Virus record (IMG/VR): IMGVR_UViG_3300036987_000538
Location: 2,877 to 66,876 of that record
DNA length: 64,000 nucleotides
Source of the DNA: a virus
Reading direction: 5' to 3' (one strand)
Shown: positions 27,304 through 57,309 of the stretch, piece after piece
Layout of the letters: each line of letters starts with the position of its first letter
Position numbering within the stretch: position 1 is the first letter of the stretch
Notes under the pieces: generated by a model
What the model saw: only the letters and a program-made list of their open reading frames with translations
The model's database searches: none
What the model was told of the DNA's origin: nothing
Position numbers and translations under genes: made by a program

Positions 27304-29963
27304 TTCTTAGGCTTGGCAGACTTCGCCTTGGCCTGCGTCGCCTTCACCTTGCGGTCAGCGGCAGCGTTGGCGTTGGCCTGCTTGCGCTCAGCCACGCGCT
27401 CATGGCGATCGAACTCGGATTGCTCAGCCTGAGCTGTGCGGTCATGCACAGCGTCTTCACGAGACGCCGCAAACTCCCGCTCCGCATGCTGTGCGCTGTG
27501 CGCCGCGTCCTGCCGGCCCGCGACAAACTCGCGCTCAGATTGCTGGTGCTGCGTGGCTGCGTCGTCGCGTCCGGCGACAAACTCCTGCTCGCGCATGGCC
27601 TGGTCATGCTGCTGTGCGTGCTGCTCCAGCGCTGCATTTTGCTGCATCTCCTCGGATTGCAGGCTGAGCTGCGCCTGCTGGCCAGCCGCCTGCGTGTCGA
27701 TTTGCTTTTCCTTGAGACGGACGTTCTCGACCGCCTCAAACTCCTTGCGCTCAAGGTCACGATTGCGGCTCTGCGCAGTCGAGTTTTCCTTGCCCTGCAG
27801 GATGCCGAGCTTCTGCTTTTCGAGTTCCAGCTTGAGCTTTTCGATCTCCAGCTTCTGCTGATCGAGCGCCAAGCGCTGCTTCTCGATGTCGTGCTCCATC
27901 TGGTTCATGCCGGCTTCGCTGCCGCCGCCTTCGCCCTGCGGCGTGCCGAGGCCAGTCTTGGCGAGCTGGTCGACCATGCGCTCGATGTCGGCCTCGAGTC
28001 CGCGGCCGACCTTGAACTTGCGCACGGCGAAAAGCATGATCTTGGCGAGCATCGGCCCTGCGAGCGGCGCCTGCTGAATCATCGCAACGCCGTTCTGCAG
28101 GTACGTGCTGAGCACCGTTAGGAACTCGGTCGCTTCCTGCTTGTCGCCGGTGATTGCCTCGTCGGCCAACGTGTCGGTGTCGATCTTGACGGCGAGCAGG
28201 CGCAGCGGTTCATTGCGCAGCAGCGCAAGCGACGCTTGCCAGCGGGCCTCGTCGAACAGGCCGTCAGGCCCAATGAATACGCTCTCGGCGCCCGACATCT
28301 GTTTGATGTTCTCGTCGCTGTAGAGTGTGCAGACGATCTCGGCGATGACGCGCAGAACTTCACGCACGTGCCGAGCGACGACGGTCTGGCGCTCTTTAAG
28401 GCGAGCGTTGGCGAAGTTGCCCTTGAGCTTCTGCGCCGATGCGGTTTCGCGAGGGTCGCTGGCGCCGCGCACGATGTCGCTGATGCCAGTGATCTCGTAA
28501 AGCTCTTGAACGAGCGCCGTACGGACGTTGTAAAGCTCGCGCAGTGTCTTAACGATCGAGTCAAGCGGAAGGTACTCGACGCTCTTGGACAGCCCGCCGC
28601 CCTCTTGGAAGCGCGACCAGTTGCGAACGGGAATCATGATGTTCCCGCGCGTGGAGTCCGTGACTTTCTTCATCTCCTCGCCGGCTTCGGCGTCGTACAC
28701 GCCAGCGACGCGCAGACAGTCAGTCAGCAGCGAGATGCGGAAAGTGACTTCGTCCAGCTCAATGGCGATGTCCTGCCACTGCGTGTAGTCGGGGACCGGC
28801 AGCAGCGTGTCATTGGTCATGGTCCCGTACATCGGCTTGGCGCACGGGAAAAAGCCCTCCAGCTGCAGAGGGTCGTCTTTCGTGTCGAGCACCCTCTCGG
28901 CGTAGTCGGGGCAGATCCAAATCACCTTGCGGGCGACGCGGTCCCAAATTTCATAGATCACGGCGCGCTGGAAGGTGCCGCGGAAGTCGTCGGTATTGCC
29001 GGCCTTGTGCCGCGGGTTCGCGGCCTCACGGCTGCTGAGGGGAATCGCATTCCCGAGCTTCTTGCCGAAGCGCGCGATCAGCTCGCTGCGCAGCATGGGG
29101 ATGCGTCGGGCAACCCACGGCACATGCCGCCAGCGGGTCGCTACGCCGTGCAGGAAGTCCTTTGCGTTGACGGACTCCAAGATCGTGCGCTCGCCGATCT
29201 TGTACTCGTACTTTTCCTTGTAGTAGCGACCTTCCTCGTCGGTGTGCTCCTCGTAGGCCGGGCGCTGGCCGTCATCGTCGGCGTCGGCGTACTCGTCCTC
29301 CGGCGCGGTCTGGCCGTCGCTGAGGCGGGTCTTGGTGTCGGACTCGCGAACGGCGAACTCGGGCATATAGGTGACCCAAGACGTGCCGCGGCCGGCGAGG
29401 ATGTAATCGTCAGTCGTCTCGCTCGTGGCGTCGTAGAACTGATCCGACTGCGCGATCGTCGTCAGGAGGCGCTGCAACACAAGGGCAGCGTCGCGCGCGA
29501 CCGGCGCGTTGTCGTCGTGAATGCGCGAGATGTACGGATTGGGAAACGCCGAGAACAGCAGCGGCTTGAGCGTCTGTTTCATCGACCAAAGCGCGTTGTA
29601 GCGGCGGCTCTGGTTGTTTGCCGCCTTCACGCCATCGTCGCCGGCACTGGCCACGCGCTCGTCGCGGTAGCGCTCGAAAATCTTGTCGATGCGCTCGTGG
29701 TACTTCTCGAACACCTTGTCGGCGTTCTGGATCTCAAGCACCCAGCGGCGCAGCTCTGCGCGCTCGGGTGGCTCGTTGTCCCGGTGGAGATCCGCCTTGG
29801 ACTCCATCTGCAGGGAAGTGTTTTCGCTTTCGAGCACGCCGCGCGCCCCTCGTTTTATGGCCAACTGGCCCATTATACGACAGGCGCTATTTAGTATTTG
29901 ACGACTCGCACAATGCAGCGTAGAACTGGCTTTACTGACGCCGGCTGAAAGGCCGTAGGCCAA
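27300..29963 (-). CDS. portal protein (P22-like) with long Q/E-rich C-terminal helical extension
   Basis: about 650-aa core plus about 230-aa C-terminal Gln/Glu-rich region with three tandem EREFVAGR(D/Q)DAA repeats; true start uncertain (alternative ATGs at 29873 or 29807; an operator/promoter-like motif at 29898-29914 lies inside the longest ORF). Confidence 0.6.
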   Translation of the reverse strand: MAYGLSAGVSKASSTLHCASRQILNSACRIMGQLAIKRGARGVLESENTSLQMESKADLHRDNEPPERAELRRWVLEIQNADKVFEKYHERIDKIFERYRDERVASAGDDGVKAANNQSRRYNALWSMKQTLKPLLFSAFPNPYISRIHDDNAPVARDAALVLQRLLTTIAQSDQFYDATSETTDDYILAGRGTSWVTYMPEFAVRESDTKTRLSDGQTAPEDEYADADDDGQRPAYEEHTDEEGRYYKEKYEYKIGERTILESVNAKDFLHGVATRWRHVPWVARRIPMLRSELIARFGKKLGNAIPLSSREAANPRHKAGNTDDFRGTFQRAVIYEIWDRVARKVIWICPDYAERVLDTKDDPLQLEGFFPCAKPMYGTMTNDTLLPVPDYTQWQDIAIELDEVTFRISLLTDCLRVAGVYDAEAGEEMKKVTDSTRGNIMIPVRNWSRFQEGGGLSKSVEYLPLDSIVKTLRELYNVRTALVQELYEITGISDIVRGASDPRETASAQKLKGNFANARLKERQTVVARHVREVLRVIAEIVCTLYSDENIKQMSGAESVFIGPDGLFDEARWQASLALLRNEPLRLLAVKIDTDTLADEAITGDKQEATEFLTVLSTYLQNGVAMIQQAPLAGPMLAKIMLFAVRKFKVGRGLEADIERMVDQLAKTGLGTPQGEGGGSEAGMNQMEHDIEKQRLALDQQKLEIEKLKLELEKQKLGILQGKENSTAQSRNRDLERKEFEAVENVRLKEKQIDTQAAGQQAQLSLQSEEMQQNAALEQHAQQHDQAMREQEFVAGRDDAATQHQQSEREFVAGRQDAAHSAQHAEREFAASREDAVHDRTAQAEQSEFDRHERVAERKQANANAAADRKVKATQAKAKSAKPKK

Positions 29964-30138
29964 AGTTGCTCAACTGAGGCAGACGCTGAATGTGGTCCCC
30001 ACCACGAGCGAAGCGGCGGCGGTTTGAGCTGGGGTGCGGAGACGCTGACTCTCCAATCCCTCGGACACTGGCACTCCCCCTCGCACATTGCGCCACCGCT
30101 GGCGTCCATGGGCGAGGGGGTCAGTCCAAGGGCAGAAA

Positions 30139-30624
30139 ATGCGCATCTGGTTCGACACAGAATTTATCGAAGACGGCGAGACGATCGACCTGATTTCGAT
30201 CGGCCTCATTCGTGAGGATGGCCGCACCTATTACGCCGAGAGCGCCGAGTGCGCGCTTAGCCTGGCTTGCCCGTGGGTTGAGGCAAATGTGTTTCCCCAC
30301 CTTACCGGCGACCGCAAGAACAAGAGTCGCATCGCCCGAGACATCGTCGAGTTTGCCGGCAGCGATCCCGAGTTTTGGGCGTGGTTCGGCGCTTACGATT
30401 GGGTGTCGCTGTGCCAGCTCTACGGTCGCATGATCGACCTGCCGAAAGATTGGCCCATGTTCGTGCGCGATCTGCGGCAGCACGTGGACGGCACGCCTTG
30501 GCGAGCGCCTGAGCAGCTGAGCATCAAGCATCACGCGCTGAACGACGCCATCTGGACGATGCAGGCGCATGCCGACTTCGACCACCAGTATCTATCGAAA
30601 GTGCTCCGCTCCGGCGTCCGGTAA
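30139..30624 (+). CDS. DEDDh-family 3'-5' exonuclease (DnaQ/oligoribonuclease-like)
   Basis: Exo I motif MRIWFDTEFIEDG; Exo III motif HHALNDAIW. Confidence 0.55.
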   Translation: MRIWFDTEFIEDGETIDLISIGLIREDGRTYYAESAECALSLACPWVEANVFPHLTGDRKNKSRIARDIVEFAGSDPEFWAWFGAYDWVSLCQLYGRMIDLPKDWPMFVRDLRQHVDGTPWRAPEQLSIKHHALNDAIWTMQAHADFDHQYLSKVLRSGVR

Positions 30625-30634
30625 CAGGAGTTAC
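30621..30634. repeat. motif A variant GTAACAGGAGTTAC
   Basis: 4 nt upstream of the ATG at 30639. Confidence 0.7.
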
Positions 30635-30638
30635 TCTG

Positions 30639-32842: not shown

Positions 32843-32856
32843 GTAACAGATGTTAC
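32843..32856. repeat. motif A GTAACAGATGTTAC
   Basis: convergent junction; overlaps the terL stop. Confidence 0.9.
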
Positions 32857-34430
32857 TAGATGCGCTGCGGCGCACCGTTCTGCGCGGCCAGCTCGGCACT
32901 GTGCCGCGCCCACAAGTGATCCATGCTGACGGACTCGATGCCGGCGAGCTGCTTGGGACGCTCGGGCGAGGCGCTCATGTATGGCCGCGACATGCAGAGA
33001 TAACGCAGCGCGTCCGCCCAATGATCCTCGCCGTCCGTGTCGAGATCCTCGGGGTTCAGCCTGTCGTGCTGCAGCGTCGGGATCGTGCGGATGCCGTGGA
33101 TGCAGCTGTCCATGAAAAACAGCATGGGCAGCTTCTTTCCGACTTGCAGCACTTCCTCGCCGCCGAAGCGCGCACGCACGGCATCCCAGCCGCCAAGAGC
33201 ACCGCGGCCGGGCACGCGCTTATTGTCTGCCCTCGCAAAGCCCAACTTGTAGTTGGACGCGCGATAGATGCGCTCGGCGATTGATGGGCCACCATCCGCG
33301 GCGTGCGCCGATGGGTCGATCACGCGGATGCGCACGTTCGGAATCGACTTGTCGACCTCCATGATGTGCGCGGCAACGTCCTCGGCGTACTGGCGCACGC
33401 CCTCGTTCGGCAGGAACTCGCCGTTCTGATCGTTCTTGATGCCGTACAGCTCGCGCTCGATCACGATGGCGCCGCGGGGGATGATGTGACCGTCCGGCGC
33501 CGTCCATGTCTCGCTGGCGATGGCGCCCCAAAGGAAGGCGTAAGGCTTGGCGCTGCCCCAATCGCCGGCACACACGCGAATCCAGTGCTCGGGCAGCTCG
33601 CACTGGCGCACGACGTGGGTGCCCATGTCGAAGCCGTCGAAGAATGCGCCGTCGATGATGTTCCAGTCGCCGTACAGCCACGCCTTTACGAGCGCGTCAC
33701 TGCCCGACTGCGCGATGCGCGCGATGTAGAGCGGGTCAGCTTCGAGCAGCTTCTTATTGTCGAACACGAGGCTCGGGATAAAGATGCGCGTCGAGTCGAG
33801 GCCGGTGTACTTGTCGCGATCGACGATCTTTTTCCAGCCGAGCGGCGCCGGGTCGATGTACCGCTTTTTGACGATGTTATGGCCTGGTCCGCCCGGGTTC
33901 ATCGTCACCGTGAAGCACGTCGGCACGCCCGCGGTGCTGCGCAGCGTCGCCTTGAGCTTCAGCAGCGAGAGGAAATTCGGGAAGTTGGTCCCTTCCTCAA
34001 TGCAGACGTCGGTGAGCGACCAGCCCTGCGTCTTCTCGACGTCGTCCTCTTTGTCGAAGTGACGGAAAATGACTTCGGCACCGTTGTTGAACGTCCACTT
34101 TTTCTTGGAGTCGACGTACTCGGCACCGAGCGGGCCAAAGATCTGCTTGCTGCGCGAGATCACCGGCTCCAGCTGCGGAAGCTCGCGGCGGATAAGCAGC
34201 GCCTTTAGGTCTTTGCCGTAGATCTGCGAGCGGATGGCCAGGCGCCCGAGCTGGGCGTCCGTCTTGCCGCCGCCGCGGGAGCCGCCGTATGCAATCTCCT
34301 CGATCGGGCAATGCACGAACGCGGTCTGACCGCCCGCCTGGGGTGACCAGACGCAATTGGAGTCAGCGGCGAATTTCTCTTTGTCGGTCTGCGTAGTCGA
34401 TTTGCTCATGCACCGTATTTTACGGCACAC
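32856..34430 (-). CDS. terL: terminase large subunit
   Basis: Walker A GGSRGGGKT; nuclease-domain acidic residues (AGDWG); start either GTG at 34430 or ATG at 34409. Confidence 0.85.
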   Translation of the reverse strand: MCRKIRCMSKSTTQTDKEKFAADSNCVWSPQAGGQTAFVHCPIEEIAYGGSRGGGKTDAQLGRLAIRSQIYGKDLKALLIRRELPQLEPVISRSKQIFGPLGAEYVDSKKKWTFNNGAEVIFRHFDKEDDVEKTQGWSLTDVCIEEGTNFPNFLSLLKLKATLRSTAGVPTCFTVTMNPGGPGHNIVKKRYIDPAPLGWKKIVDRDKYTGLDSTRIFIPSLVFDNKKLLEADPLYIARIAQSGSDALVKAWLYGDWNIIDGAFFDGFDMGTHVVRQCELPEHWIRVCAGDWGSAKPYAFLWGAIASETWTAPDGHIIPRGAIVIERELYGIKNDQNGEFLPNEGVRQYAEDVAAHIMEVDKSIPNVRIRVIDPSAHAADGGPSIAERIYRASNYKLGFARADNKRVPGRGALGGWDAVRARFGGEEVLQVGKKLPMLFFMDSCIHGIRTIPTLQHDRLNPEDLDTDGEDHWADALRYLCMSRPYMSASPERPKQLAGIESVSMDHLWARHSAELAAQNGAPQRI

Positions 34431-38033: not shown

Positions 38034-38921
38034 TTAGGCGGCGACAGCCGCCGCGCGCGGATGCGCCTTTTCGTACGTTTCCATCAGCCGGTCGGTGGCC
38101 ACGTGCGCGTAAATCGCCGTGGTGCTCACCGACTCGTGGCCGAGCAATTCCTTGATGTCGATCAGCGATGCGCCCGCGTTCAGCAGCTGCGTGGCAAAGC
38201 TATGCCGGAGGCTGTGGGGCGACGCGTCGGCTGGGAGCCCAAGCCGCTTGGCGTAGCTCGCAAAGATGCGCCGCACGTCGCGATCGACCAGCGGCACCAG
38301 ATTTTCGGACACGAAAAGGGGGTGCTCGTCGGCGAGATCCGCGGTCGGCAGCGCCACGAGGTAGGCGTCGATCGCGTCCCAGGCCGCGGGCAGCACCGGC
38401 ACCAGACGTTCCTTGTTGCCCTTGCCCCACACGCGGACCACGTCGCGACGCTCGCCGGCATCGGCGATGGTCAGCTTGAGCGCTTCGCCGACGCGCAGGC
38501 CGGTCGCCCACATAAGCGTGAGCAGCGCCTCGTCACGTTTCCCGAGCCAGCCGTTGCGATGCGAAGCTGCCGCAATCAGCTCAAAGCACTGGTCGATCGT
38601 GAGCGCGCGCGGTAGGCGGGAGTTGGCTTTGACTTTCGGGCCGCGCACGGTGCGCAGGGCCTCGATGGCGGCGCTATCGTTGGCGCACCACTTGTAAAAC
38701 GATTTGAGGGCGGCGAGCAGCACGTTGACGGACTTGTCGCCGAGGCCACGCGTGCGAGCGTGCTTGACGACTGCGCGCACGTCCTTGGCACTCATGACGT
38801 CGGGCGGCAGCAGCAGGTCTGCGACCAGCATAAGCTGCCCGGCGTACGCAGTAACAGATGTTACAGCCAGCAGATCTTGCTGGCGCATGTGCTGCTGCCA
38901 AGCCTCGATCGCGGCGCGCAT
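38034..38921 (-). CDS. XerC/XerD-like tyrosine recombinase
   Basis: ATGLRVGEALKL, HSLRHSFAT, LLGHESVSTTAIYAHV (catalytic Y); N-terminus aligns to the XerD core-binding domain; contains an in-frame palindrome (VTSVT) at 38851-38864. Confidence 0.75.
   Translation of the reverse strand: MRAAIEAWQQHMRQQDLLAVTSVTAYAGQLMLVADLLLPPDVMSAKDVRAVVKHARTRGLGDKSVNVLLAALKSFYKWCANDSAAIEALRTVRGPKVKANSRLPRALTIDQCFELIAAASHRNGWLGKRDEALLTLMWATGLRVGEALKLTIADAGERRDVVRVWGKGNKERLVPVLPAAWDAIDAYLVALPTADLADEHPLFVSENLVPLVDRDVRRIFASYAKRLGLPADASPHSLRHSFATQLLNAGASLIDIKELLGHESVSTTAIYAHVATDRLMETYEKAHPRAAAVAA
38851..38864. repeat. motif A GTAACAGATGTTAC, inside the xerC-like gene
   Basis: in frame, encodes VTSVT. Confidence 0.8.
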
Positions 38922-40236: not shown

Positions 40237-40754
40237 GTGCGCATTCTCCTATTTGACGATGCACACTAACTCACTTAGTGCGAGTCGTCAAAGGGAAACG
40301 AGTGCCCGGTATTTTTTGGCAAAAAAAATTTTCGGGGAGCTGGTTTTTCGCAGAAACGTGAGTGCGCGGGTATCAGTACCGTCCGCGGGTTCCCATGCAT
40401 GGGACCGTTTCGGGTCGACCGGGGCGGGTGTTGCCGGTGCAATGCACGCAAGGGTACCCAATCGACCGGGCCACCCCTATCGCGTGCGTCGCGCCGCCGC
40501 TCCGTTGCCTATGCCTTGCCCGTGTCCGCTAATAACGATTATGGAAAGTGTATGCGCACCAATGCCTTAGCGTCGCGGGCGGTGTGTGGATATTTCTATT
40601 TGTATGAGCACCTCGCAGTAACAGAATGTTACCGGCCTCGCCGGCATTTGCGATTCATAACTTGTTAGTGCGATTCGTACAATCCTACCTTTGCCGCAGT
40701 AAGTCCGCGGCATTCCGGCCGATAGGCCAAAACGCACCGCAAGGGGGATCTGAG
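40237..40754. promoter_or_regulatory. divergent control region between leftward and rightward operons
   Basis: about 520 bp non-coding; contains TTGACG boxes; operator-like TAGTGCGAGTCGTCAAA (40276-40292), TTTGCGATTCATAA (40647-40660) and TAGTGCGATTCGTACAAT (40666-40683); AT-only inverted repeat at 40316-40347; perfect palindrome TCCCATGCATGGGA at 40391-40404; motif A at 40618-40632. Confidence 0.6.
40618..40632. repeat. motif A (15-mer) GTAACAGAATGTTAC
   Basis: divergent control region. Confidence 0.8.
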
Positions 40755-41039
40755 ATGCAAGTCACAAAATCGCGCAATATCCAACCGGATACAACGCCGC
40801 CACGTCGCCGGCCGGTGGCGGATCATAACAAGGACAGCAATGTTGACCCATCTAGTGGCGCCATGCGCGGCCTTGATTGCACGCCACTAGAGCAGGCGCT
40901 GGTCAACACTCGCGCCGCCATGCGCGCCGCCGGCATGGTGCCACGCGTGGCCAGCGATCTAATCCCACACCCAAACGACTTGCTTATGGCTGAGCTGCGC
41001 AACGTGGAGCGCTATCTAACAATCGCATTGAAGAAATAG
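40755..41039 (+). CDS. hypothetical protein (94 aa)
   Basis: SD AAGGGGGA; first gene of the rightward early operon. Confidence 0.4.
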   Translation: MQVTKSRNIQPDTTPPRRRPVADHNKDSNVDPSSGAMRGLDCTPLEQALVNTRAAMRAAGMVPRVASDLIPHPNDLLMAELRNVERYLTIALKK

Positions 41040-41054
41040 TGCGACTCGCACTAT
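41037..41054. promoter_or_regulatory. motif B operator-like palindrome TAGTGCGACTCGCACTAT
   Basis: perfect 13-bp palindrome GTGCGACTCGCAC. Confidence 0.6.
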
Positions 41055-41087
41055 TGATAGTGGCAGACGCAAACAACGGAGACACTT

Positions 41088-41174
41088 ATGAGCATGACAA
41101 ATGACACCGCAATGGCCATCGCAGTCCTTGCCTTCGTTGTAGGCATTCTGGCGCTTTGCGGATCGCTGCCGTAA
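41088..41174 (+). CDS. tiny hydrophobic peptide (28 aa)
   Basis: ACGGAG SD; AMAIAVLAFVVGILALCG; stop overlaps the palindrome at 41171-41185. Confidence 0.3.
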   Translation: MSMTNDTAMAIAVLAFVVGILALCGSLP

Positions 41175-41185
41175 CAGAGTGTTAC
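41171..41185. repeat. motif A (15-mer) GTAACAGAGTGTTAC
   Basis: overlaps the stop of the 28-aa ORF. Confidence 0.8.
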
Positions 41186-41215
41186 TCGCTTTCTCTCTCT
41201 CAATCTCCCGTGACT

Positions 41216-41246
41216 TGGGCCGGCCTCGCAAGCCGGCCTCTTTTTT
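41216..41246 (+). terminator. rho-independent terminator
   Basis: GGCCGGC-CTCGCAA-GCCGGCC followed by TCTTTTTTTG. Confidence 0.7.
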
Positions 41247-41326
41247 TGTCTCGCCATCTTGTGCGACTCGTAAAACTCTGGCTTATTACGACTCGTCGAA
41301 ACAAACCACCGCAACGGGGAATTACA

Positions 41327-43264: not shown

Positions 43265-43277
43265 GTTGAGAGGCTAA

Positions 43278-43314
43278 TAGTGCGAGTCGCAAAACACCCA
43301 TGCGACTCGCACAA
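43278..43314. promoter_or_regulatory. two tandem motif B sites (TAGTGCGAGTCGCAAAA ; ATGCGACTCGCACAA) upstream of the vWA gene
   Basis: TGCGA-N-TCGCA palindromes 6 bp apart. Confidence 0.6.
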
Positions 43315-43337
43315 CCACCCAAACGGAGCGCACGCCT

Positions 43338-45710: not shown

Positions 45711-45731
45711 TCAAACAACGGAGCAACGTCG

Positions 45732-46712: not shown

Positions 46713-46737
46713 CAACTCAACCAACGGAGCAACGAGT

Positions 46738-47830: not shown

Positions 47831-47867
47831 TTGACGACGCGGGCAATTTAATTTACGATTCGCACAA
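47831..47867 (+). promoter_or_regulatory. sigma70-like promoter (TTGACG-17-TACGAT) overlapped by operator motif TTACGATTCGCACAA
   Basis: -35 at 47831-47836, -10 at 47854-47859; AT-rich spacer; operator-family motif at 47853-47867. Confidence 0.5.
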
Positions 47868-49526: not shown

Positions 49527-50238
49527 TCAAGTGCTTTGTCGCAGGCCGGCCTCTCGTTCGCTGCCACCAACTCCTCCACTGCAGCGAACGCCACCGCATT
49601 TGACTCCGTCAGGCGCTTGTTCAACTCGCGCAATTGCCGTTCCATCCTCTGTTTGCCTCGATGCGGCCGGTAAGGGCACGATGCCCGTCGATGTAATCGC
49701 CGAGCCCACATCGTAACCGAAACACCGCCAGCCGTCGCGGAGCGCTCGCGCAAATAATTCGATTTTAGTTGATGCCGGATAATGCCGTTCAACTTCATTG
49801 TGCAGAGCATCCGGCTTCGAGCTATGCTTTCGGGTTAGTGGCTTGCCCTCAAAGATCGTGCGGCCCTGCGTGCCTCTTGCTGGCGCACGCGGCTTCCCTT
49901 TTTTGAAAGTGAGTACAATCTCTGAGTTAGCGCGCTTCCAATATCCGAGCCCTAGCCTGGTCTTTTTCCAAGCGCGCCAGGTCACGTACTCCCACCCCCA
50001 GGTTGCACACATAGCAAGCGCGTCGGGTAGCAGGCCGTCTGTGACCCACACGTGGATCACCGCGCAGTTTCCGAGCTGCTGATTGATTGTTGGCCCGAGT
50101 GCCGCAATTTCGTGCAGCTCCATCGTGTCGTACTTGGGACACTTCGTGCGCCCCTTGGTGCTGTACGTCTTGTATGGCCAAGGAAAGTCGATGATCGCCA
50201 CCACCGGCTCGGGGCGGGGCTTCTTAGTTGCCGTCACA
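49527..50238 (-). CDS. MT-A70-family N6-adenine DNA methyltransferase
   Basis: motif IV IIDFPWPY (DPPW-like); SD CAGGAG + GTG start just downstream of the palindrome at 50252-50265; C-terminal 60 aa low complexity and overlapped by another ORF (49448-49645), so possibly frameshifted. Confidence 0.55.
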
Positions 50239-50265: not shown

Positions 50266-50833
50266 GCGCGGGTGCATGCTCGGTTGGCATGTCGTCGGTG
50301 AAATCCATCACGGCCTGATCGCCGCCTTTGAACACTGAGCCCATGAGGTAGCAGATGATCACCGGCGCCAGCTCCCAGCGCTTGGCGTGGTGCAGCCACT
50401 GCCCGAGGTTGTGAGCGCAGATGCACTGTGCCATCGGACTGCGCCAGCGCCGGGCACGCTCGATCGCCATCTCGATGTTGGATGTGGCTCGTCGAGCCAC
50501 GGTGTCCCTCGGTAGTCTCATCTTGAGAAAGTAGAGCGCGGCCTCGATGCCCTCCAGCGTCGGGTCGGCCGTCTGCCCGTAGAGCAGTGCAAAACGACCC
50601 AGCGCCTCGTACGTTCGGCGGGACATCGAGCCGCTGTAAGCGTCGGCGTACCGGAGGAAGGCAATAACGGCATCGTCCTCTGCCGCTGAATAGGGCTTTC
50701 CCGCCCCAGATTTGGCGCTACAGCCGTTTTCTTCGGCGTCCGGCTCGGTGATGCCCCTAACGCGCGCCAAGCCAGCCAGACCCCCGCGTGAGAAGGCCGC
50801 GACCTCGAACAGATCCAGCGGCCCTATTTGCAC
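50261..50833 (-). CDS. hypothetical protein
   Basis: ORF. Confidence 0.3.
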   Translation of the reverse strand: MQIGPLDLFEVAAFSRGGLAGLARVRGITEPDAEENGCSAKSGAGKPYSAAEDDAVIAFLRYADAYSGSMSRRTYEALGRFALLYGQTADPTLEGIEAALYFLKMRLPRDTVARRATSNIEMAIERARRWRSPMAQCICAHNLGQWLHHAKRWELAPVIICYLMGSVFKGGDQAVMDFTDDMPTEHAPAQ

Positions 50834-51312
50834 TTCACGACCTCGCTCGCCTTGAGCGCTTTTTCGATCTCAACGCGCAGCTCTGGCAGCATTACTACGT
50901 GCCGCACGTTGGTTAGTACGGTTCGCAAAAGGTTGACGATACTACCCAGCTCGGCTTTGGTGATGGCGGTCGCGCTTTTCTTTTTCGGGACGCGCGGCGC
51001 GGCCAGATACTGCACCCCGGCCGGCTCGATCACATAGACGGATACGCGTGTACCGCGCGGTGCGGCCCGGTCGATCGCGTCACGCCAGCGGGTGCCGATC
51101 ATCCTGCCGGCGATCAGCTTGCGGGCGGTGTTCTCCTGCCAACGGCTCGTCGGCGTGCCCTGCGGCTGGCAAGCCTCCATGAGCAGGCGCATCTGCGTGC
51201 GCGTGTATTCCTGCTTAGCCATATCGCCGAGCCTTTGTGCGTTGCCCCTCGTTGGGTGAGCCGAAGTCGAAGAACGTGCGCTGCAGGACGACGTCGCCGT
51301 AAGAGCATCCAT
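50824..51312 (-). CDS. hypothetical protein
   Basis: ORF; likely internal start MAKQEY. Confidence 0.3.
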   Translation of the reverse strand: MDALTATSSCSARSSTSAHPTRGNAQRLGDMAKQEYTRTQMRLLMEACQPQGTPTSRWQENTARKLIAGRMIGTRWRDAIDRAAPRGTRVSVYVIEPAGVQYLAAPRVPKKKSATAITKAELGSIVNLLRTVLTNVRHVVMLPELRVEIEKALKASEVVKCK

Positions 51313-52145: not shown

Positions 52146-52219
52146 TGGGCGACCGGGCAGGATTTGAACCTGCATTACCTCCACTCCGGGTCGGCGTCCT
52201 ACCGTTAGACGACCAGCCG
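52146..52219 (-). tRNA. tRNA-like gene with encoded CCA; anticodon arm non-canonical
   Basis: minus strand CGGCTGG-TC-GTCT-AACGGTA-GGAC...GCAGG-TTCAAAT-CCTGC-CCGGTCG-C-CCA: acceptor stem (2 G-U), D-arm and T-arm fold cleanly; the putative anticodon stem (CCGAC/GGAGG) has 2 mismatches; followed by hairpins GGCCGAAAGGCC and CCCCGCCGGGG. Confidence 0.5.
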
Positions 52220-52394: not shown

Positions 52395-52430
52395 AAAACA
52401 ATATTACGACTCGCACTATCTCGTCAACAG
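52395..52430 (-). promoter_or_regulatory. promoter-like TTGACG-N15/16-TAATAT with embedded operator motif, upstream of the tRNA-like gene
   Basis: minus strand TTGACGAGATAGTGCGAGTCGTAATATTG. Confidence 0.4.
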
Positions 52431-52442
52431 CAAATCGTAAAA

Positions 52443-55400
52443 TTAGTTCAGCCGCCACCCCACCCACGTCTGAATGAACTCCAAGCACCCCACATCGTCG
52501 AGCCCGCGCGCGTACTCACGTAACGCTGGCGACTGATTGCACGTCGCCTCGATTAGCCCCCTCACGAGAACCATCGCGTGCCGTCTTATTTGCTGCACCA
52601 TCAACCGCTCTATCTTACTGATCGTCAATCCTGAGCGGCGCCTTATGTCCTCGTCACTGAGCCCACGCCTGATGACTGCCAGCATTCGCTTGCACCTGTT
52701 CTTACGAACCACGTGCAATTCGACGACTTCAAGTGACTGATTTTGCGCATATCCCAATGTGAAACCGGCTAAACCATCCTTATCGGTTCTGAGATATTCG
52801 ACCTCCCTCTTACTTATTAGAGCTAAGGATGGTTTAGCCGTCGAGTGATGCGAGATAAGAGTTGCATCATCAAGAGGGTCAATTTCGAGCCAAGCGCGAA
52901 GCAGAGCGCGGACATAATCCATGCCCACGCGTTGCATGTGGTCCCACCCTGTGGATGCCTCTTTGTAGAGCCCGGCGAACGCGTCGAGTGTTGTCCCCGC
53001 GTCCTCAAATAGCCCGAGCGCGATAAGCGCCACGTCGCCTTCCTCTGGCCGCACGTCAGCGAGCGTGCAGAGCCGCGTCACGGGCAAGCCCACCGGCCAC
53101 TGCCCGAACACCGTCACGTCGCACGGATTGGCGCTGGTGCGGTCGTACGGCCGGATGCGCGCCACGGCCTGCGCCACTTCCGCGTGGCTGATGAGTGCCT
53201 GCAGCGCGCGGGCGTTGGCGTCGGGATGCCCGTCGCACTGGACGTTGATGGTGGTCCCATCGACCATGTGTACTGGCAACGTCTGCTTGCCCCAGCCCTC
53301 GGCATGGGCAATAGGCGCGACGCTGTCGTTTTGTATGAACAATGCTTCTGTGTAGAGTTCGAGCTGGTGGTTATCCAGCGCCGGCCGTCCCACGATGGTT
53401 GCAGATGGCACGTCTTTAAAGTTGTTGAGGCCACGTAAAGCCCCAAAGTGCGCGGTGAGCACGTTGCCCGGTAACCCCATGTTACTGAGCGCTTCGAGAA
53501 CGTCTTTCTGAGCGACCAAGAGCGTCTGCTTGTGCGTGAACGCCTGCTTGAGCACGTGCAGCCAGATGGCGAACACCCTCGAGTCGGCGCGCTTCTTCCG
53601 GTTGACGCGCTTGTGCGTCAGCGCCGTCGCCACTTGCTTGGCCGAGTCTTGGATGCGCGCCGCCTCGTTGGGGTCGTCGAACGCAGCAGCGATCCAGCTG
53701 GCGCGCGACACTGCCGATGCGCGCTCGATCGCCTCGTCGAGATCTTTGTCCGGCTTGGGCAGCAACGCGCTCTTGGCGTACCCGGCGTCGATGACTTGCG
53801 TGATCACCACGTTGCCGGGCGTGGGCGCCACGTCGATCGTCTCGTAATCAAAGGGCGTCCCATCCGGCGAGATCACCGCCCGCCAGATGGCCAGCCCCGG
53901 GTCGAGCTTGGCCGTACCGTCAAGGTGGACCGCGCCGCGTGCCAGGACGTTATCCGGCAGAAACAGCCGTCGCTTGGCGGTCACCCATTTGATGCCTCGG
54001 GCGTGATGCACCCGGATCGCCTTGTAGTGGCTGAGCCGGTGCGAGTCCCGCATGTTGCTGAGCAGCCCGGTCACAAAATTGCTGGTCTTCACGTGAGCGA
54101 GGTCGCGCAGGAATTTGGCCTGCGTGGCGTTGACGAGGTTCTTGCTGAGCGTTTCCCGGTGCGTCTCCTCCAGCGCCAGCATCGCGTCGATGCGTTCGGC
54201 CGTGAGCGTGCTCGGGACCAGTGCCCGCTCGCTCTGGCCGCGCGGCATCGCGGCGTTGAACATCGAGATCAGCTCGGCGCGCGAGTCGCGCAGCTTGATG
54301 AACCCGCCCTGGTAGTTGAGATCTTTGAGTTCGATGTTCTCTTGCGGGTTGCCGGCGAGCGCGCTGCCGACGACGCTCTCGTCGATCAGCGTGATGCTCG
54401 CCCACGAACTGAGGTGGTGATGCTCGTTGAACAGCGCAGCGTGCGGCAGCAGGACTTCGCCGGCACCCGTGTCGTTGTCTTGGGCGAGCCACTTGCAGTC
54501 GCCTCGGTCGGGGCACAGCGCGCAGGCTGATTTCTTCGCTGAGATCCCCAGCTGCTCGGCGCGCTCGGCGATGGCGCCGTACTTGGTGTTGGTGCAAAGC
54601 AGCTTGCGCCCCTTGTGGTGCCGCACCGCCTCGGGGAGATTCACGCCGTAGTGCATTCCGGCCGGCGCCAGGCCAAATGCGTGGTCGCGATGATCCTCGG
54701 CGAGCTGCTCGGCGAGCGCATGCGTCGGGGCCGCGGTCAGCACGCTGTCCGAGCTGAGCACGCCGGCCGTGAGCACGCTGCGGAGCGCGTAGCTCTTGCC
54801 GGCACCCGGCGGGCTGGTCGCAAGTATCTGCTTCGGCTTGCCTTTTAGGATCTCCTCGGCGGCGAGCTTCACACGGTCGGCCAGCTCCTGTCGGGGCGGC
54901 TTGGCGCTCTGTGTTGGAGGTACACACGCAGAGGTTGAGTAAGCATTTGTTACTGCCCGAGCCCGAGCGCGGGCCTTGTCCCATGCCTGCTGCAGCCTGA
55001 ACACGCTCAGGTGCTCGCGTTCGCGGCGAGGGTACTCGTTGGGGTCCATCTCAAGCAGCGTGCGGCGGGCGAGCGCGACGAACGCGCCAAAGTGCTGGGC
55101 TTGCTGGTTGTCGGGGGCCGCGAACGCAGCTGAGCACAGCGCCCGGTGCAGCGGTAACGCCACGTTACCGGGGGCGATCTGCGCCATCCAATCGGTGCGC
55201 TGCCCCGGCACGGTGCCGGCGTACTGCTCGATATACGCGATGTCGCGAGCGTCCAGCCCGGCGACCGCCGCGGCGCGCGTCACGCCTATGTCGGCCTCGT
55301 CGCCGTCGAAGTGCCACGCGATCGGCGTGGGCACGGGACGACCGAGCGCAACTTGCTCGTCGCCGCAGTCAGCAAACAATATCGGCCCGGCGAGTGCCAC

Positions 55401-56051
55401 GAAGCTCTGTGGGCCATAGATCGAGTCGTCGAATAGCTTGCGGCCGGCGCGCTGGTTGGCATAGCGCACGAACGCGCGCTGCGACGCGAGCGTGTGCTCC
55501 TCGGTGGTGACGATAAAGATGCGGACGCGGATCTTGGGCTTGATGCCGGCGCTCGGCGAGAAGCACGCCACGTGGGCGCAGCCGTCCAGCTCGGGGATCT
55601 CGTAAAGCGCGTCGCGGACGGTGTCCGGCGCGTCGCCGATGTCGCCCTCGATTTCGTCGGCGTCGAGCACGAGCAGTTTGCGCGGATAGTCCTCGTAGTT
55701 TTCCTGCTGTCGCCCGAGCACGTCTTTCCAGCCGCTGTCGACTTGGAACTCCGCGCCGGCTCGCAAGCGGCCTTGGATCAAAGCCACGTCCGGCTTGGTT
55801 GCGGCTGTTTCAAGAAACATGCGCAACCCGGTGAGGCCGTTGATCGGTTCCTCGCGGTATCCGTGCAGATACACGCCTTTGCCGACCGCGCCGACTTCAT
55901 CCCATGTACCAGCAACGACATCCGGGGCCTGCGAGCCCCAATTGATGCCGACTGCCGGCCGAAGTCGGTAGGTCTTGGTCAGCGCCTTGTTATAGGCGCG
56001 GATGAGGGCAACGTGCATTAGGCATCCCTGGATTGCCCACCATGCTACCAC
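52443..56051 (-). CDS. replication protein: primase/polymerase-like N-terminal domain + P-loop NTPase/helicase + C-terminal HTH
   Basis: LLVLDADE (AEP-like DxD); Walker A SPPGAGKS; Walker B ITLIDESV; C-terminal LSDEDIRRRSGLTISKIERL sigma-r4-like HTH. Confidence 0.45.
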   Translation of the reverse strand: MVAWWAIQGCLMHVALIRAYNKALTKTYRLRPAVGINWGSQAPDVVAGTWDEVGAVGKGVYLHGYREEPINGLTGLRMFLETAATKPDVALIQGRLRAGAEFQVDSGWKDVLGRQQENYEDYPRKLLVLDADEIEGDIGDAPDTVRDALYEIPELDGCAHVACFSPSAGIKPKIRVRIFIVTTEEHTLASQRAFVRYANQRAGRKLFDDSIYGPQSFVALAGPILFADCGDEQVALGRPVPTPIAWHFDGDEADIGVTRAAAVAGLDARDIAYIEQYAGTVPGQRTDWMAQIAPGNVALPLHRALCSAAFAAPDNQQAQHFGAFVALARRTLLEMDPNEYPRREREHLSVFRLQQAWDKARARARAVTNAYSTSACVPPTQSAKPPRQELADRVKLAAEEILKGKPKQILATSPPGAGKSYALRSVLTAGVLSSDSVLTAAPTHALAEQLAEDHRDHAFGLAPAGMHYGVNLPEAVRHHKGRKLLCTNTKYGAIAERAEQLGISAKKSACALCPDRGDCKWLAQDNDTGAGEVLLPHAALFNEHHHLSSWASITLIDESVVGSALAGNPQENIELKDLNYQGGFIKLRDSRAELISMFNAAMPRGQSERALVPSTLTAERIDAMLALEETHRETLSKNLVNATQAKFLRDLAHVKTSNFVTGLLSNMRDSHRLSHYKAIRVHHARGIKWVTAKRRLFLPDNVLARGAVHLDGTAKLDPGLAIWRAVISPDGTPFDYETIDVAPTPGNVVITQVIDAGYAKSALLPKPDKDLDEAIERASAVSRASWIAAAFDDPNEAARIQDSAKQVATALTHKRVNRKKRADSRVFAIWLHVLKQAFTHKQTLLVAQKDVLEALSNMGLPGNVLTAHFGALRGLNNFKDVPSATIVGRPALDNHQLELYTEALFIQNDSVAPIAHAEGWGKQTLPVHMVDGTTINVQCDGHPDANARALQALISHAEVAQAVARIRPYDRTSANPCDVTVFGQWPVGLPVTRLCTLADVRPEEGDVALIALGLFEDAGTTLDAFAGLYKEASTGWDHMQRVGMDYVRALLRAWLEIDPLDDATLISHHSTAKPSLALISKREVEYLRTDKDGLAGFTLGYAQNQSLEVVELHVVRKNRCKRMLAVIRRGLSDEDIRRRSGLTISKIERLMVQQIRRHAMVLVRGLIEATCNQSPALREYARGLDDVGCLEFIQTWVGWRLN
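53471..53485. repeat. motif A-like degenerate GTAACCCCATGTTAC, intragenic
   Basis: inside the replication gene; encodes SNMGLP. Confidence 0.4.
55154..55168. repeat. motif A-like degenerate GTAACGCCACGTTAC, intragenic
   Basis: inside the replication gene; encodes GNVALP. Confidence 0.4.
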
Positions 56052-56055: not shown

Positions 56056-56090
56056 GAGTGTGACTCGTCAAAACTGTTTTACGCTTGACG
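56056..56090. promoter_or_regulatory. motif B site (GTGTGACTCGTCAAAA) + TTGACG box in the divergent region between the replication gene and the rightward operon
   Basis: seen directly in sequence. Confidence 0.5.
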
Positions 56091-56143
56091 CTATCTCAGA
56101 GACAAGCTAGTTTTGTGCCCATCGTAAAACATGGGGGACTCAC

Positions 56144-56236: not shown

Positions 56237-56244
56237 GGGCCACG

Positions 56245-56709: not shown

Positions 56710-56756
56710 CCGGCGGTTATACGTCGAAACCGAAACTCTTGTATAACGGAGCACTG

Positions 56757-57287
56757 ATGTTTTCTGCGCCCGCGCTACCCATCGACCCTGCTATTCGCGA
56801 CAACATGCGTCGCTGGCTCGCGCACCATAAGCGCTTCCAGTACGTCGAGCTGCCGCCGATCCTGCACACCACGAAGGTTGGTCAGAAAACCCGGGCCGTC
56901 TATGTCCCGCATCTGCGCCGGCACAAGCTGGATCACTGCAAACGCTACACCGGCAAGCTGCTGCGCGCGATTGAGGCTGAGCGCGGTTGCAGCAAGCGGC
57001 GGCGACCGCCGCCACAGCATCAACTGAAAATTGCGCTGCCATGGAAGCAGAGCGACGCGCGCGTTGTCGCGTTCAACATCGAGCGCGACGAAGCCGGCAA
57101 GCCGTTCTTTAGCGACGTGCGGCTGCTGCGCAATGCAGCGTCACGCACGAAGCGCGACAAGCGACTCGAAAATTCACTCACCGATGAGCAGTGGCTGTCG
57201 ATCTACAAGCGAGTTGCGCGTGCCATGTTCCCCGCGACGGACGGAGCGAAGAACACGTGGAAGGATTTTGCCTTTAAGAGCGCTTGA
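56757..57287 (+). CDS. hypothetical protein
   Basis: AACGGAGCACTGATG leader. Confidence 0.35.
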   Translation: MFSAPALPIDPAIRDNMRRWLAHHKRFQYVELPPILHTTKVGQKTRAVYVPHLRRHKLDHCKRYTGKLLRAIEAERGCSKRRRPPPQHQLKIALPWKQSDARVVAFNIERDEAGKPFFSDVRLLRNAASRTKRDKRLENSLTDEQWLSIYKRVARAMFPATDGAKNTWKDFAFKSA

Positions 57288-57292
57288 TTACT

Positions 57293-57309
57293 TTTGCGAT
57301 TCGCACTAA
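57293..57309. promoter_or_regulatory. motif B site TTTGCGATTCGCACTAA
   Basis: intergenic, upstream of 57390. Confidence 0.5.

What the first reader, a model, noticed from the sequence alone, without database searches (positions are those of the whole stretch)
29898..57309. Second palindromic family (G)TGCGA-N-TCGCA(C) confined to early and divergent intergenic regions, often paired with TTGACG -35 boxes
About 13 copies were found at 29898, 40276, 40647, 40666, 41037, 41257, 41284, 43278, 43300, 47853, 52404, 56056 and 57293. One of them (41037-41054) is a perfect 13-bp palindrome, GTGCGACTCGCAC. They sit in the two divergent control regions, upstream of the MoxR/vWA genes, upstream of the tRNA-like gene, and next to candidate sigma70 promoters (TTGACG-17-TACGAT at 47831; TTGACG-N15-TAATAT at about 52420 on the minus strand). 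This pattern fits operators for a dimeric HTH repressor or activator overlapping early promoters, i.e. the lysis-lysogeny or early-gene control circuit. No cI/cro-like gene is obvious in the window, so the cognate regulator is unidentified. Candidates are the wHTH protein at 666-1328, small ORFs near 40755-41039, and the C-terminal HTH of the 1202-aa replication protein.
Basis: partly seen in the sequence, partly recalled or inferred. Interest (0 to 1): 0.65.

Follow-up and report, generated by a model that had tools for sequence, protein, structure and literature searches.

The report
Phage repressor operator family at promoters
A 17-base mirror-symmetric DNA word sits on nearly every promoter of this uncultured temperate phage and is most likely the docking site of the phage's own lambda-cI-like repressor, whose gene lies just outside the window; this is a familiar kind of genetic switch.

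Summary
The motif is real. It is a 17-bp dyad, T(A/T)GTGCGA-N-TCGCAC(A/T)A. There are 10 strong and about 6 weaker copies in the window (15 sites >=14 bits vs 0.38 expected) and 6 more in the 4.5 kb of the same contig left of the window. Strong copies lie outside called genes. They overlap the -35, spacer, -10 or +1 of TTGACG-17-TAnnnN promoters heading almost every transcription unit, late operons included. They show no orientation bias and often occur in pairs 20-25 bp apart. A 258-aa XRE-HTH + Peptidase_S24 (cI/LexA-like) gene lies 0.7 kb left of the window. Three weaker sites spaced exactly 21 bp apart span the two facing promoters between it and the lytic genes. Binding is inferred, not shown. 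A syntenic relative carries a related but different motif at the same seven intergenic positions, as expected for heteroimmune phages. Caveats: the 43286/43306 pair also forms a hairpin conserved in relatives, and repressor homologs elsewhere lack this motif. Every strong site carries a CcrM-type GANTC at its centre. That leaves a host GcrA/methylation reading, or a methylation-sensitive operator, open. Verdict: a new member of a known kind, of modest interest.

The parts
29897..29913 (.). Operator-like site TTTGACGA C TCGCACAA (23.0 bits) between the portal operon (-) and the RNase H operon (+). It overlaps TTGACG-17-TAGAAC on + (29898-29926) and lies just upstream of a TATAAT (29872-29877) on -.
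40252..40268 (.). Weak site TTTGACGA T GCACACTA (13.1 bits), 24 bp from the next site. It covers the -10/+1 of the minus-strand promoter.
40276..40292 (.). Site TAGTGCGA G TCGTCAAA (22.7 bits). Its right half is the -35 TTGACG of the minus-strand promoter TTGACG-17-TAGTGT, which heads the operon 40236 -> 32584 (includes the Tyr recombinase and TerL).
40646..40662 (.). Weak site ATTTGCGA T TCATAACT (9.8 bits) over the -35 of the 40654 promoter.
40666..40682 (.). Site TAGTGCGA T TCGTACAA (25.4 bits) over the spacer and -10 of TTCATA-18-TACAAT (40654-40683, +), upstream of the small ORF 40863-41039.
41037..41053 (.). Perfect 8+1+8 palindrome TAGTGCGA C TCGCACTA (24.9 bits), starting at the stop codon of the small ORF.
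41259..41275 (.). Site TTGTGCGA C TCGTAAAA (26.0 bits), just after the terminator at 41217-41250 and upstream of the 230-aa gene (41327).
41284..41300 (.). Site TATTACGA C TCGTCGAA (19.6 bits), 25 bp from the previous site.
43278..43294 (.). Site TAGTGCGA G TCGCAAAA (25.6 bits) between the MoxR-like and VWA genes. Together with the next site it forms a 12-bp-stem hairpin (-23.3 kcal/mol).
43298..43314 (.). Weaker site CCATGCGA C TCGCACAA (14.7 bits), 20 bp from the previous site. It is the second arm of the hairpin.
47851..47867 (.). Site ATTTACGA T TCGCACAA (22.1 bits) over the -10/+1 of TTGACG-17-TACGAT (47831-47859, +).
50914..50930 (.). Possible site TAGTACGG T TCGCAAAA (19.2 bits) inside gene 50824-51222 (-). 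It has no GANTC and its status is uncertain.
52402..52418 (.). Site TATTACGA C TCGCACTA (25.3 bits) in the spacer of the minus-strand promoter starting at TTGACG (52427), upstream of tRNA-Ser (52146-52219) and the operon behind it.
56056..56072 (.). Weaker site GAGTGTGA C TCGTCAAA (14.9 bits) over the -35 of TTGACG-18-TAGCAT (56071-56042, -), the promoter of the 1191-aa helicase-like gene (start 56018).
56113..56129 (.). Weak site TTGTGCCC A TCGTAAAA (14.0 bits) at the +1 of TTGACG-17-TAGTTT (56085-56113, +).
57292..57308 (.). Site TTTTGCGA T TCGCACTA (25.6 bits) upstream of the 57390/57556 genes.
1..6 (+). TACAAA -10 hexamer of a TTGACG-17-TACAAA promoter. Its -35 and an upstream site (TAGTGCGA C GCGTAAAA, L002 centre 4424, 19.2 bits) lie just left of the window. 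Further left on the same contig (L002 coordinates) are three sites 21 bp apart (centres 3771, 3792, 3813), the 258-aa S24 repressor gene (2975-3751, minus strand), and two more sites (2941, 2962).

Best explanation
The copies are operators: DNA sites bound by a dimer of one sequence-specific repressor. The consensus is a 17-bp dyad, T(A/T)GTGCGA-N-TCGCAC(A/T)A. Each copy lies inside the footprint of RNA polymerase on a host sigma70-type promoter (TTGACG-17-TAnnnN), over the -35, the spacer, the -10 or the start site, so bound protein would block initiation. Where a half-site departs from the consensus (TTGACGA, TTTACGAT, TATTACGA), it doubles as a promoter hexamer. Sites heading almost every transcription unit let a single protein silence the whole prophage. 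Neighbours 20-25 bp apart would allow dimers to bind cooperatively. The most likely protein is the phage's 258-aa XRE-HTH + Peptidase_S24 repressor, encoded 0.7 kb left of the window. Between that gene and the divergent RuvC-like gene, two face-to-face promoters are covered by three weaker sites exactly 21 bp apart. The best of these lies over the lytic promoter and the weakest over the repressor's own promoter, a graded arrangement like lambda OR1-OR3. Shown here: the motif, its statistics, its placement, and the repressor's fold. Inferred: that this protein binds these sites, and the direction of regulation.
For: The motif is enriched far above chance. Strong sites lie outside the genes called on the contig. 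6 of 10 strict sigma70-like matches in the contig overlap sites, although sites cover about 0.5% of the DNA. TTGACG boxes with a TAnnnN hexamer 17 bp downstream lie next to the sites. Site position relative to the -35 varies (about +7, +13 to +20, +28 to +37), and the orientation of the asymmetric copies agrees with the downstream gene in only 5 of 9 cases (read). This argues against a promoter element and for a symmetric binder. Eight pairs are spaced 19-25 bp apart against 0.12 expected, and the only triple lies between the repressor gene and the lytic genes. For the repressor: Peptidase_S24 E=1.4e-10; PHROG 'transcriptional repressor' over residues 37-256; AF2 model pLDDT 85 matching full-length lambda repressor 3bdn, LexA, and XRE HTH domains. 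No other DNA-binding domain reached a Pfam cut-off among the roughly 45 other proteins scanned, which cover most but not all genes of the contig. Relative L012 (MoxR 54% identical, synteny confirmed) carries a related motif, TGGACTGYGA-N-TCR. It occupies the same seven intergenic positions, and all 7 TGGACTG copies are intergenic. So position is conserved while the outer half-site bases diverge, as expected for heteroimmune relatives. The other repeat family (GTAAC..GTTAC) keeps its sequence across these relatives.
Against: There are no binding or transcript data. The sites next to the repressor gene are the weakest of the family (15.1, 11.5 and 7.9 bits), and two of the three lack the GANTC core. 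Loci encoding repressor homologs at 35-46% identity (L003, L004, L021, L022, L023) have no clear copies of this motif, even though the putative recognition helix is fairly conserved. Covariation between regulator and motif could therefore not be shown. The repressor of L012 could not be retrieved. The position of the LexA catalytic Lys156 is an invariant Arg in this family, and no conserved Ala-Gly cleavage site exists, so classical RecA-driven induction is doubtful. The 43286/43306 pair coincides with an intercistronic hairpin that four relatives also have, with other sequences, so that pair may act at the RNA level. Every strong site contains a CGANTCG core, which is also the preferred GcrA/CcrM element of Alphaproteobacteria.
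Confidence: 0.55

Rival explanations
1. The sites are operators, but for a different regulator. This could be an unrecognised phage early protein (a Cro-like partner, an activator, or one of the many ORFs with no family match) or a host transcription factor. The S24 protein would then recognise something else.
For: Repressor homologs in five other loci are not accompanied by this motif. The immunity-region copies are weak. Many small early ORFs have no family assignment.
Against: The S24 protein is the only protein in the contig with a confident sequence-specific DNA-binding fold. The only triple of phased sites lies in its control region. The motif is absent from IMG/VR apart from 7 single chance-level hits, so a widespread host regulon is unlikely.
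Confidence: 0.2
2. The conserved core is a host epigenetic promoter element. CGANTCG is a CcrM methylation site (GANTC) in the context that GcrA prefers (YGAKTCK). The phage promoters would be activated by the GcrA-sigma70 complex when methylated, and the flanking T-rich bases would simply be promoter hexamers.
For: All strong sites contain GANTC within CGANTCG. GcrA prefers YGAKTCK (PMC4647560) and acts as a monomer from sites upstream or downstream of the start site (PMC9976885 abstract). The contig is GANTC-depleted (195 observed, 276 +/- 16 expected). Hints of an alphaproteobacterial host: a repressor relative in a Hyphomicrobium MAG; the nearest portal proteins are in Bradyrhizobium, Brucella and Ruegeria phages; GTA-type holin and GH108 lysin.
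Against: Conservation extends symmetrically to positions +/-8 (T at -8 and T at -5 carry 1.5 and 1.2 bits), well beyond a 7-bp monomer site. Family members next to the repressor gene keep the flanks but lack GANTC. Sites come in phased pairs and one triple. The related motif in L012 is defined by its outer TGGACTG, and only some copies have GANTC. The host is not established.
Confidence: 0.12
3. The palindromes act as RNA hairpins (terminators, processing or stability elements) rather than as DNA binding sites.
For: The 43286/43306 pair folds at -23.3 kcal/mol (z = -7.5). L012, L014, L018 and L024 all have an 11-14-bp-stem hairpin of different sequence at the same MoxR-VWA junction. The perfect palindrome folds at -10.7 kcal/mol.
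Against: Most single sites would give only about 5 bp of stem. Several lie over or upstream of -35 boxes and would not be transcribed from those promoters. No U-tracts follow them on the sense strand. This rival is plausible only for the MoxR-VWA pair.
Confidence: 0.05
4. The motif is a promoter for a phage-encoded single-subunit RNA polymerase. Some copies, such as TATTACGACTCG, resemble the T7 promoter TAATACGACTCACTATA.
For: The only support is the superficial similarity of a few copies.
Against: No RNA polymerase domain was found in any large ORF. The motif is dyad-symmetric, and its orientation agrees with the downstream genes in only 5 of 9 asymmetric cases.
Confidence: 0.02

Closest known systems
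Lambda cI/Cro with the OR and OL operators (lambdoid immunity regions)
   Same: Operators are 17 bp with partial two-fold symmetry about a central base pair. Tandem sites sit about two helical turns apart, in a divergent region between the repressor gene and the lytic genes, with graded strength. The repressor has an XRE-type HTH N-domain and an S24 C-domain. The fold match to 3bdn is; the lambda operator details are from established knowledge.
   Different: Lambda has six sites at two loci. Here there are at least 16 sites on at least 11 promoters, including late operons. The two switch promoters face each other rather than standing back to back. No Cro-like gene was identified; the first rightward gene is a RuvC-like resolvase. 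The catalytic Lys is replaced by an invariant Arg, and no Ala-Gly cleavage site is conserved.
Mycobacteriophage L5 gp71 'stoperators' (Cluster A actinophages)
   Same: One phage repressor has about 20-30 copies of its site dispersed over the genome and silences the whole prophage (from memory of the literature).
   Different: Stoperators are asymmetric 13-bp sites, oriented with transcription, often within transcribed regions, and they act by blocking elongation. Here the sites are dyad-symmetric, show no orientation bias and sit on the promoters themselves. The repressors are not of the S24 type.
Streptomyces phage phiC31 c repressor and its conserved inverted repeats (CIRs)
   Same: Many copies of a roughly 17-bp inverted repeat lie next to promoters across the early region and are bound by the phage repressor (from memory of the literature).
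   Different: The repressor family and the host promoter type are unrelated. This comparison was not tested here.
LexA and the SOS boxes of a regulon
   Same: An S24-domain repressor binds palindromic boxes on many promoters. JGI annotated the identical protein as LexA, and the C-domain aligns to LexA.
   Different: The N-domain is an XRE HTH rather than LexA's winged helix. The motif matches none of the LexA boxes I know of (CTGT-N8-ACAG, GAAC-N4-GTTC, GTTC-N7-GTTC; from memory). The gene is phage-borne.
GcrA/CcrM-dependent methylated promoters of Alphaproteobacteria
   Same: A GANTC in the YGAKTCK context lies within sigma70-type promoters at variable positions (PMC4647560, PMC9976885).
   Different: That element is a 7-bp monomer site. 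Here 17 bp are conserved with dyad symmetry and phased tandem copies.

Membership tests
Lambda-cI-type repressor/operator switch | Repressor with an N-terminal XRE-type helix-turn-helix domain | tested here: met
   The AF2 model (pLDDT 85) has helices at residues 9-85. Foldseek matches full-length lambda repressor 3bdn and XRE regulators 5woq and 3f52. Pfam HTH_3 itself did not reach E<=0.01.
Lambda-cI-type repressor/operator switch | C-terminal Peptidase_S24 domain | tested here: met
   PF00717 E=1.4e-10 over residues 135-251. A profile of the family hits LexA C-domains in the PDB.
Lambda-cI-type repressor/operator switch | Ser-Lys catalytic dyad and Ala-Gly cleavage site for RecA-stimulated self-cleavage | tested here: not met
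   The Ser is kept (D-x-S-M). The column aligned to LexA K156 is Arg in all 13 family members, and no conserved Ala-Gly exists in the linker.
Lambda-cI-type repressor/operator switch | Dyad-symmetric operators overlapping promoters, with tandem copies between the repressor gene and the lytic genes | tested here: met
   Sites lie on the -35, spacer, -10 or +1. Three sites 21 bp apart lie between the repressor and RuvC-like genes, but they score only 15.1, 11.5 and 7.9 bits.
Lambda-cI-type repressor/operator switch | The repressor physically binds the operators and represses the promoters | not testable with these tools
   Requires EMSA or footprinting and reporter assays.
Lambda-cI-type repressor/operator switch | Operator sequence changes together with the repressor in related phages | tested here: inconclusive
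   L012 has a related but distinct motif at the same positions, but its repressor could not be retrieved. Loci with repressor homologs (L003, L004, L021, L022, L023) show no clear family of their own within the DNA held.
Stoperator-type repressor sites (L5 gp71) | Asymmetric site with orientation tied to the direction of transcription | tested here: not met
   The motif is dyad-symmetric. Asymmetric copies agree with the downstream gene in 5 of 9 cases.
GcrA/CcrM methylated promoter element | GANTC in the YGAKTCK context inside a sigma70 promoter | tested here: met
   All strong sites have CGANTCG. The motif definition is from PMC4647560.
GcrA/CcrM methylated promoter element | Conservation limited to the roughly 7-bp monomer site | tested here: not met
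   Information content extends symmetrically to +/-8. Copies lacking GANTC keep the flanks.
GcrA/CcrM methylated promoter element | The host encodes CcrM and GcrA and the sites are methylated | not testable with these tools
   The host is unknown. There are only indirect hints of an alphaproteobacterial host.
Single-subunit (T7-like) RNA polymerase promoters | A phage RNA polymerase gene and an oriented motif at a fixed distance from transcript starts | tested here: not met
   No RNA polymerase domain in the large ORFs. No orientation consistency.
Dispersed plasmid-prophage centromere sites (N15 sopC type) | ParA/ParB-type partition genes on the element | tested here: not met
   No ParA or ParB family hit in any Pfam or PHROG scan. 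An integrase is present at 62891-64000.

The most novel reading that the evidence does not exclude
The operators are methylation-sensitive. Each strong site has a CcrM-type GANTC exactly at its dyad centre, in a genome otherwise depleted of GANTC. Binding of the repressor (or competition with host GcrA) would therefore depend on whether the site is fully methylated, hemimethylated or unmethylated. That would couple the phage's lysis-lysogeny switch to host replication or cell-cycle state, or to the phage's own MT-A70 methyltransferase. The Arg-for-Lys S24 domain would be consistent with an induction route other than classical RecA-mediated cleavage.
Probability: 0.15. Interest if true: 0.7.

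Novelty: new member of a known kind. Interest (0 to 1): 0.35.

Why it matters
If correct, this gives a complete, testable wiring diagram for an uncultured temperate phage that probably infects an alphaproteobacterium: one cI-like repressor, about 20 operators, and about a dozen sigma70-type promoters, late operons included. It also shows that related phages keep the positions of their operators while changing the word, a clean example of how immunity specificity evolves. The GANTC at every operator centre, and the Arg that replaces the catalytic Lys in the repressor family, are cheap to test. They could reveal an epigenetic or non-SOS input into prophage induction. In itself, a repressor with repeated palindromic operators is textbook biology.

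Tried and rejected
- T7-like promoter reading: rejected. No RNA polymerase gene was found and orientation is inconsistent.
- Rfam on the whole window found only the tRNA. A permissive scan of 40230-41330 found nothing above any family's threshold.
- Megablast and tblastn against GenBank phages found no close relative.
- IMG/VR searches with MoxR, the repressor alignment and the MoxR alignment found nothing.
- An exact-pattern scan of IMG/VR for TWGTGCGANTCGCACWA gave 7 contigs with one site each and no further copies, which is chance level.
- The repressor family is rare: 13 full-length representatives among 1.8 billion proteins.
- The genome scan gave one Hyphomicrobium MAG locus and the metagenome scan one 1.7-kb contig. 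Neither carries the motif.
- Loci obtained through RuvC-like homologs (L019, L021, L022, L023) gave no clear motif family. L022 has one similar site just beyond the repressor stop codon.
- The 71-kb JGI contig carrying the identical repressor could not be fetched.
- A literature search for the motif strings returned only primers.
- The partition-site idea was rejected for lack of ParA/ParB genes.
- Weak PWM hits at 20677 and 45052 share AACGCAAAACG and look like ribosome-binding-site context, not family members.

Full report
**What the window is.** The window is 64 kb of a 68,536-bp metagenomic contig (Logan SRR11844784_1157). It is 63% G+C and encodes a phage.
- Structural genes: portal 27300-29819 (-), large terminase 32856-34430 (-), tail and lysis genes.
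- Recombinases: a Tyr recombinase at 38034-38921 (-) and an integrase at the right edge, 62891-64000.
- Recombination module at the left end.
- A MoxR-like ATPase and its VWA partner at 42080-45035.
- An MT-A70 methyltransferase, a 1191-aa helicase-like protein at 52443-56018 (-), and one tRNA-Ser.

No close relative exists in GenBank phages or IMG/VR.

Reading the 13 coordinates shows one word, T(A/T)GTGCGA-N-TCGCAC(A/T)A. It has 8-bp half-sites around a central base, with half-site variants TTTTRCGA and TTGACGA.
- The exact core occurs 4 times against 0.27 expected.
- A half-site matrix finds 15 sites >=14 bits against 0.38 expected.
- A matrix built from only the four exact copies retrieves 19 sites >=12 bits against 2.8 expected.
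- The ten strongest sites (19.6-26 bits) have centres 29905, 40284, 40674, 41045, 41267, 41292, 43286, 47859, 52410 and 57300.
- Weaker sites have centres 43306, 56064, 56121, 40260 and 40654.
- Centre 50922 lies inside a gene.
- The 'perfect 13-bp palindrome' is in fact a perfect 8+1+8 palindrome of 17 bp.

**Placement relative to promoters.** The generic promoter scan finds ten strict sigma70-like matches in the whole contig. Six of them (five promoters) overlap a site, although the sites cover about 0.5% of the DNA. Thirteen TTGAC[GT] hexamers lie within 45 bp of sites, and nine have a TAnnnN hexamer exactly 17 bp downstream.

The site centre falls at about +7 from the first base of the -35 when TTGACGA itself is a half-site. 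Otherwise it falls at +13 to +20 (spacer) or +28 to +37 (-10/+1). So the 'asymmetric' half-sites are those that double as promoter hexamers.

Taking the asymmetric copies as oriented elements, orientation agrees with the downstream gene in only 5 of 9 cases. With the gene tables, nearly every transcription unit of the phage starts at a site:
- the portal and RNase H operons (29905);
- the operon running from 40236 down through the terminase gene (40260/40284);
- the small ORF (40654/40674);
- the 230-aa/MoxR operon (41267/41292);
- the 47900 operon (47859);
- the tRNA-led minus-strand operon (52410);
- the helicase-like gene (56064);
- the 56145 operon (56121);
- the 57390 operon (57300).

Variable position within the polymerase footprint, dyad symmetry and lack of orientation are what repressor operators look like, not promoter elements.

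**Phasing.** Among the 35 positions scoring >=7.9 bits, eight neighbour pairs are 19-25 bp apart against 0.12 expected under uniform placement. There is exactly one triple.

**The missing regulator.** Fetching the contig beyond the left edge (L002) reveals a 258-aa gene on the minus strand (L002 2975-3751, i.e. 709-1485 bp left of window position 1).
- It has a Peptidase_S24 domain and a full-length match to the PHROG 'transcriptional repressor'.
- An AlphaFold model built with 13 family members (pLDDT 85) matches full-length lambda repressor, LexA, and XRE-family HTH domains.
- It is divergent from a RuvC-like resolvase gene.

The 78-bp gap between the two genes holds two facing promoters: TTGACT-16-TAAAGT running rightward and TTGACG-17-TACGCT running leftward. 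It also holds the one triple of sites, with centres at L002 3771, 3792 and 3813, exactly 21 bp apart and scoring 15.1, 11.5 and 7.9 bits. The best site lies over the lytic promoter and the weakest over the repressor's own promoter. Two more sites 21 bp apart lie just beyond the repressor's stop codon, and one sits upstream of the promoter whose -10 is window 1-6.

No other protein scanned has a DNA-binding domain above a Pfam cut-off. The scans covered most, but not all, genes of the contig. The small ORF flanked by the two best operators models as a two-helix hairpin.

**Comparative evidence.** MoxR homologs led to syntenic relatives.

L012 is 54% identical in MoxR and shares 13 homologous genes in the same order. 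It has none of our motif. Instead it has its own family, TGGACTG(C/T)GA-N-TC(G/A). It shares the inner TGCGA-N-TCG core with ours and differs at the outer positions. All seven TGGACTG copies are intergenic. They occupy the same seven places as ours:
- the head of the minus-strand operon;
- upstream of the small ORF;
- at the small ORF's stop codon;
- upstream of the 230-aa gene;
- the MoxR-VWA junction;
- upstream of the 81/85-aa operon;
- between the helicase gene and the minus-strand operon.

Conserved position with a diverged word is what heteroimmune relatives show. In contrast, the other repeat family of this phage, GTAACA-N2-3-TGTTAC (29 matches to a looser GTAAC-N1-9-GTTAC search), keeps its sequence in L012, L018 and L024.

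**Limits of the comparison.**
- The repressor family is rare.
- Loci with homologs at 35-46% identity (L003 from a Hyphomicrobium MAG, L004, L021, L022, L023) keep the repressor/RuvC-like divergent arrangement and the two promoters. They show no clear copies of this motif.
- The repressor of L012 could not be retrieved.

So the link between this protein and this motif rests on location and on exclusion, not on covariation.

**A caveat for one locus.** The pair 43286/43306 forms a 12-bp-stem hairpin (-23.3 kcal/mol, z = -7.5). L012, L014, L018 and L024 each have an 11-14-bp-stem hairpin of different sequence at the same MoxR-VWA junction. That pair may therefore act, or also act, at the RNA level.

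**An unexpected feature.** Every strong site has CGANTCG at its centre. GANTC is the target of the alphaproteobacterial methyltransferase CcrM. CGA(G/T)TCG fits YGAKTCK, the context preferred by the sigma70 cofactor GcrA (PMC4647560). GcrA acts as a monomer from variable positions (PMC9976885 abstract). The contig as a whole is depleted in GANTC: 195 observed, 276 +/- 16 expected.

The hints about the host point to Alphaproteobacteria. This makes a GcrA/CcrM element a serious rival. It does not explain:
- the symmetric conservation out to +/-8;
- the copies that keep the flanks but lack GANTC;
- the phased pairs and the triple;
- the outer-defined motif in L012.

It does leave open that the operators are methylation-sensitive.

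**The repressor's S24 domain.** It keeps the catalytic Ser. The position of LexA Lys156 is Arg in all 13 family members, and there is no conserved Ala-Gly. Classical RecA-stimulated self-cleavage is therefore uncertain.

**Verdict.** The finding is real and the operator interpretation is the best explanation (about 0.75 for 'operators of a dimeric regulator', about 0.55 for 'of this cI-like protein'). It is a new member of a well-known kind of system, closest to lambda-type immunity regions. It differs in having operators on essentially all promoters, as with L5 stoperators or phiC31 CIRs. The GANTC centres and the Arg-for-Lys S24 domain are the only features that could lift it above ordinary.

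Noticed in passing
whole contig; e.g. window 2182, 5082, 9533, 13877, 17987, 21391, 27290, 32843, 40618, 41171, 45696, 47871, 51721, 59185: A separate palindromic family, (R)GTAACA-N2-3-TGTTAC(Y). A looser search (GTAAC-N1-9-GTTAC) gives 29 matches, mostly at gene junctions on both strands, including the late structural operon. Unlike the finding's motif, its sequence is conserved in relatives L012, L018 and L024. Function unknown; it could be an RNA hairpin or the site of a conserved factor.
   Followed up: partly
centres of all strong sites; whole contig: Each strong operator has a CcrM-type GANTC (CGANTCG, the GcrA-preferred context) at its dyad centre. The contig is about 30% depleted in GANTC (195 vs 276 +/- 16), while GATC is slightly enriched (352 vs 295). 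The phage encodes an MT-A70 methyltransferase at 49527-50237 (-).
   Followed up: partly
L002 2975-3751 (minus strand), 709-1485 bp left of window position 1: The cI/LexA-like repressor family (13 representatives) keeps the S24 catalytic Ser. It has an invariant Arg where LexA has the catalytic Lys156, and it lacks a conserved Ala-Gly cleavage site.
   Followed up: partly
window 43278-43314; L012 11192-11225; L018 1418-1459; L024 1251-1286; L014 11154-11183: A stable hairpin (stem 11-14 bp, -21 to -26 kcal/mol) is conserved in position, but not in sequence, between the MoxR-like and VWA genes of five related phages. No U-tract follows it.
   Followed up: partly
window 40300-40630: A 330-bp G+C-rich block with no convincing ORF lies between two operator clusters. 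It is preceded by an A/T run and a possible TTGACG-17-TAGTGC promoter. It has no Rfam match and its folding z-score is only -1.0. Relatives L012 and L014 have a similar noncoding block at the same place. It could be attP or a noncoding RNA.
   Followed up: partly
L002 2815-2978 (minus strand), left of the window: A TTGACG-17-TATATC promoter overlapped by two operator-like sites reads away from the repressor's 3' end toward a terminator hairpin about 110 nt downstream. This may be a small repressor-controlled transcript. L022 has a similar site just beyond its repressor's stop codon.
   Followed up: no
window 62891-64000 and 38034-38921: The phage has two tyrosine recombinases: a 369+-aa integrase cut by the right edge of the window, and a 295-aa XerC/D-like protein inside the packaging-side operon.
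   Followed up: no
window 41327-42019: A 230-aa protein with a Lys/Ala-rich, histone-H1-like C-terminal tail, conserved in L012 and L014. It is the first gene of the MoxR operon and has no family match.
   Followed up: no
window 57314-57396; L012 20925-21012: Short degenerate tandem repeats (9-bp and 23-bp periods) directly follow site 57300. L012 has a clearer array of roughly 12-bp GGTAGCTGGTYG repeats next to its helicase gene. These could be iterons of a replication origin.
   Followed up: no
window 41070-41088, 43320-43337, 45712-45731, 46720-46737: Many early genes share the upstream context AAACAACGGAG(C/A) before the start codon, an extended ribosome-binding region. It produces weak false matches to the operator matrix at 20677 and 45052.
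   Followed up: no
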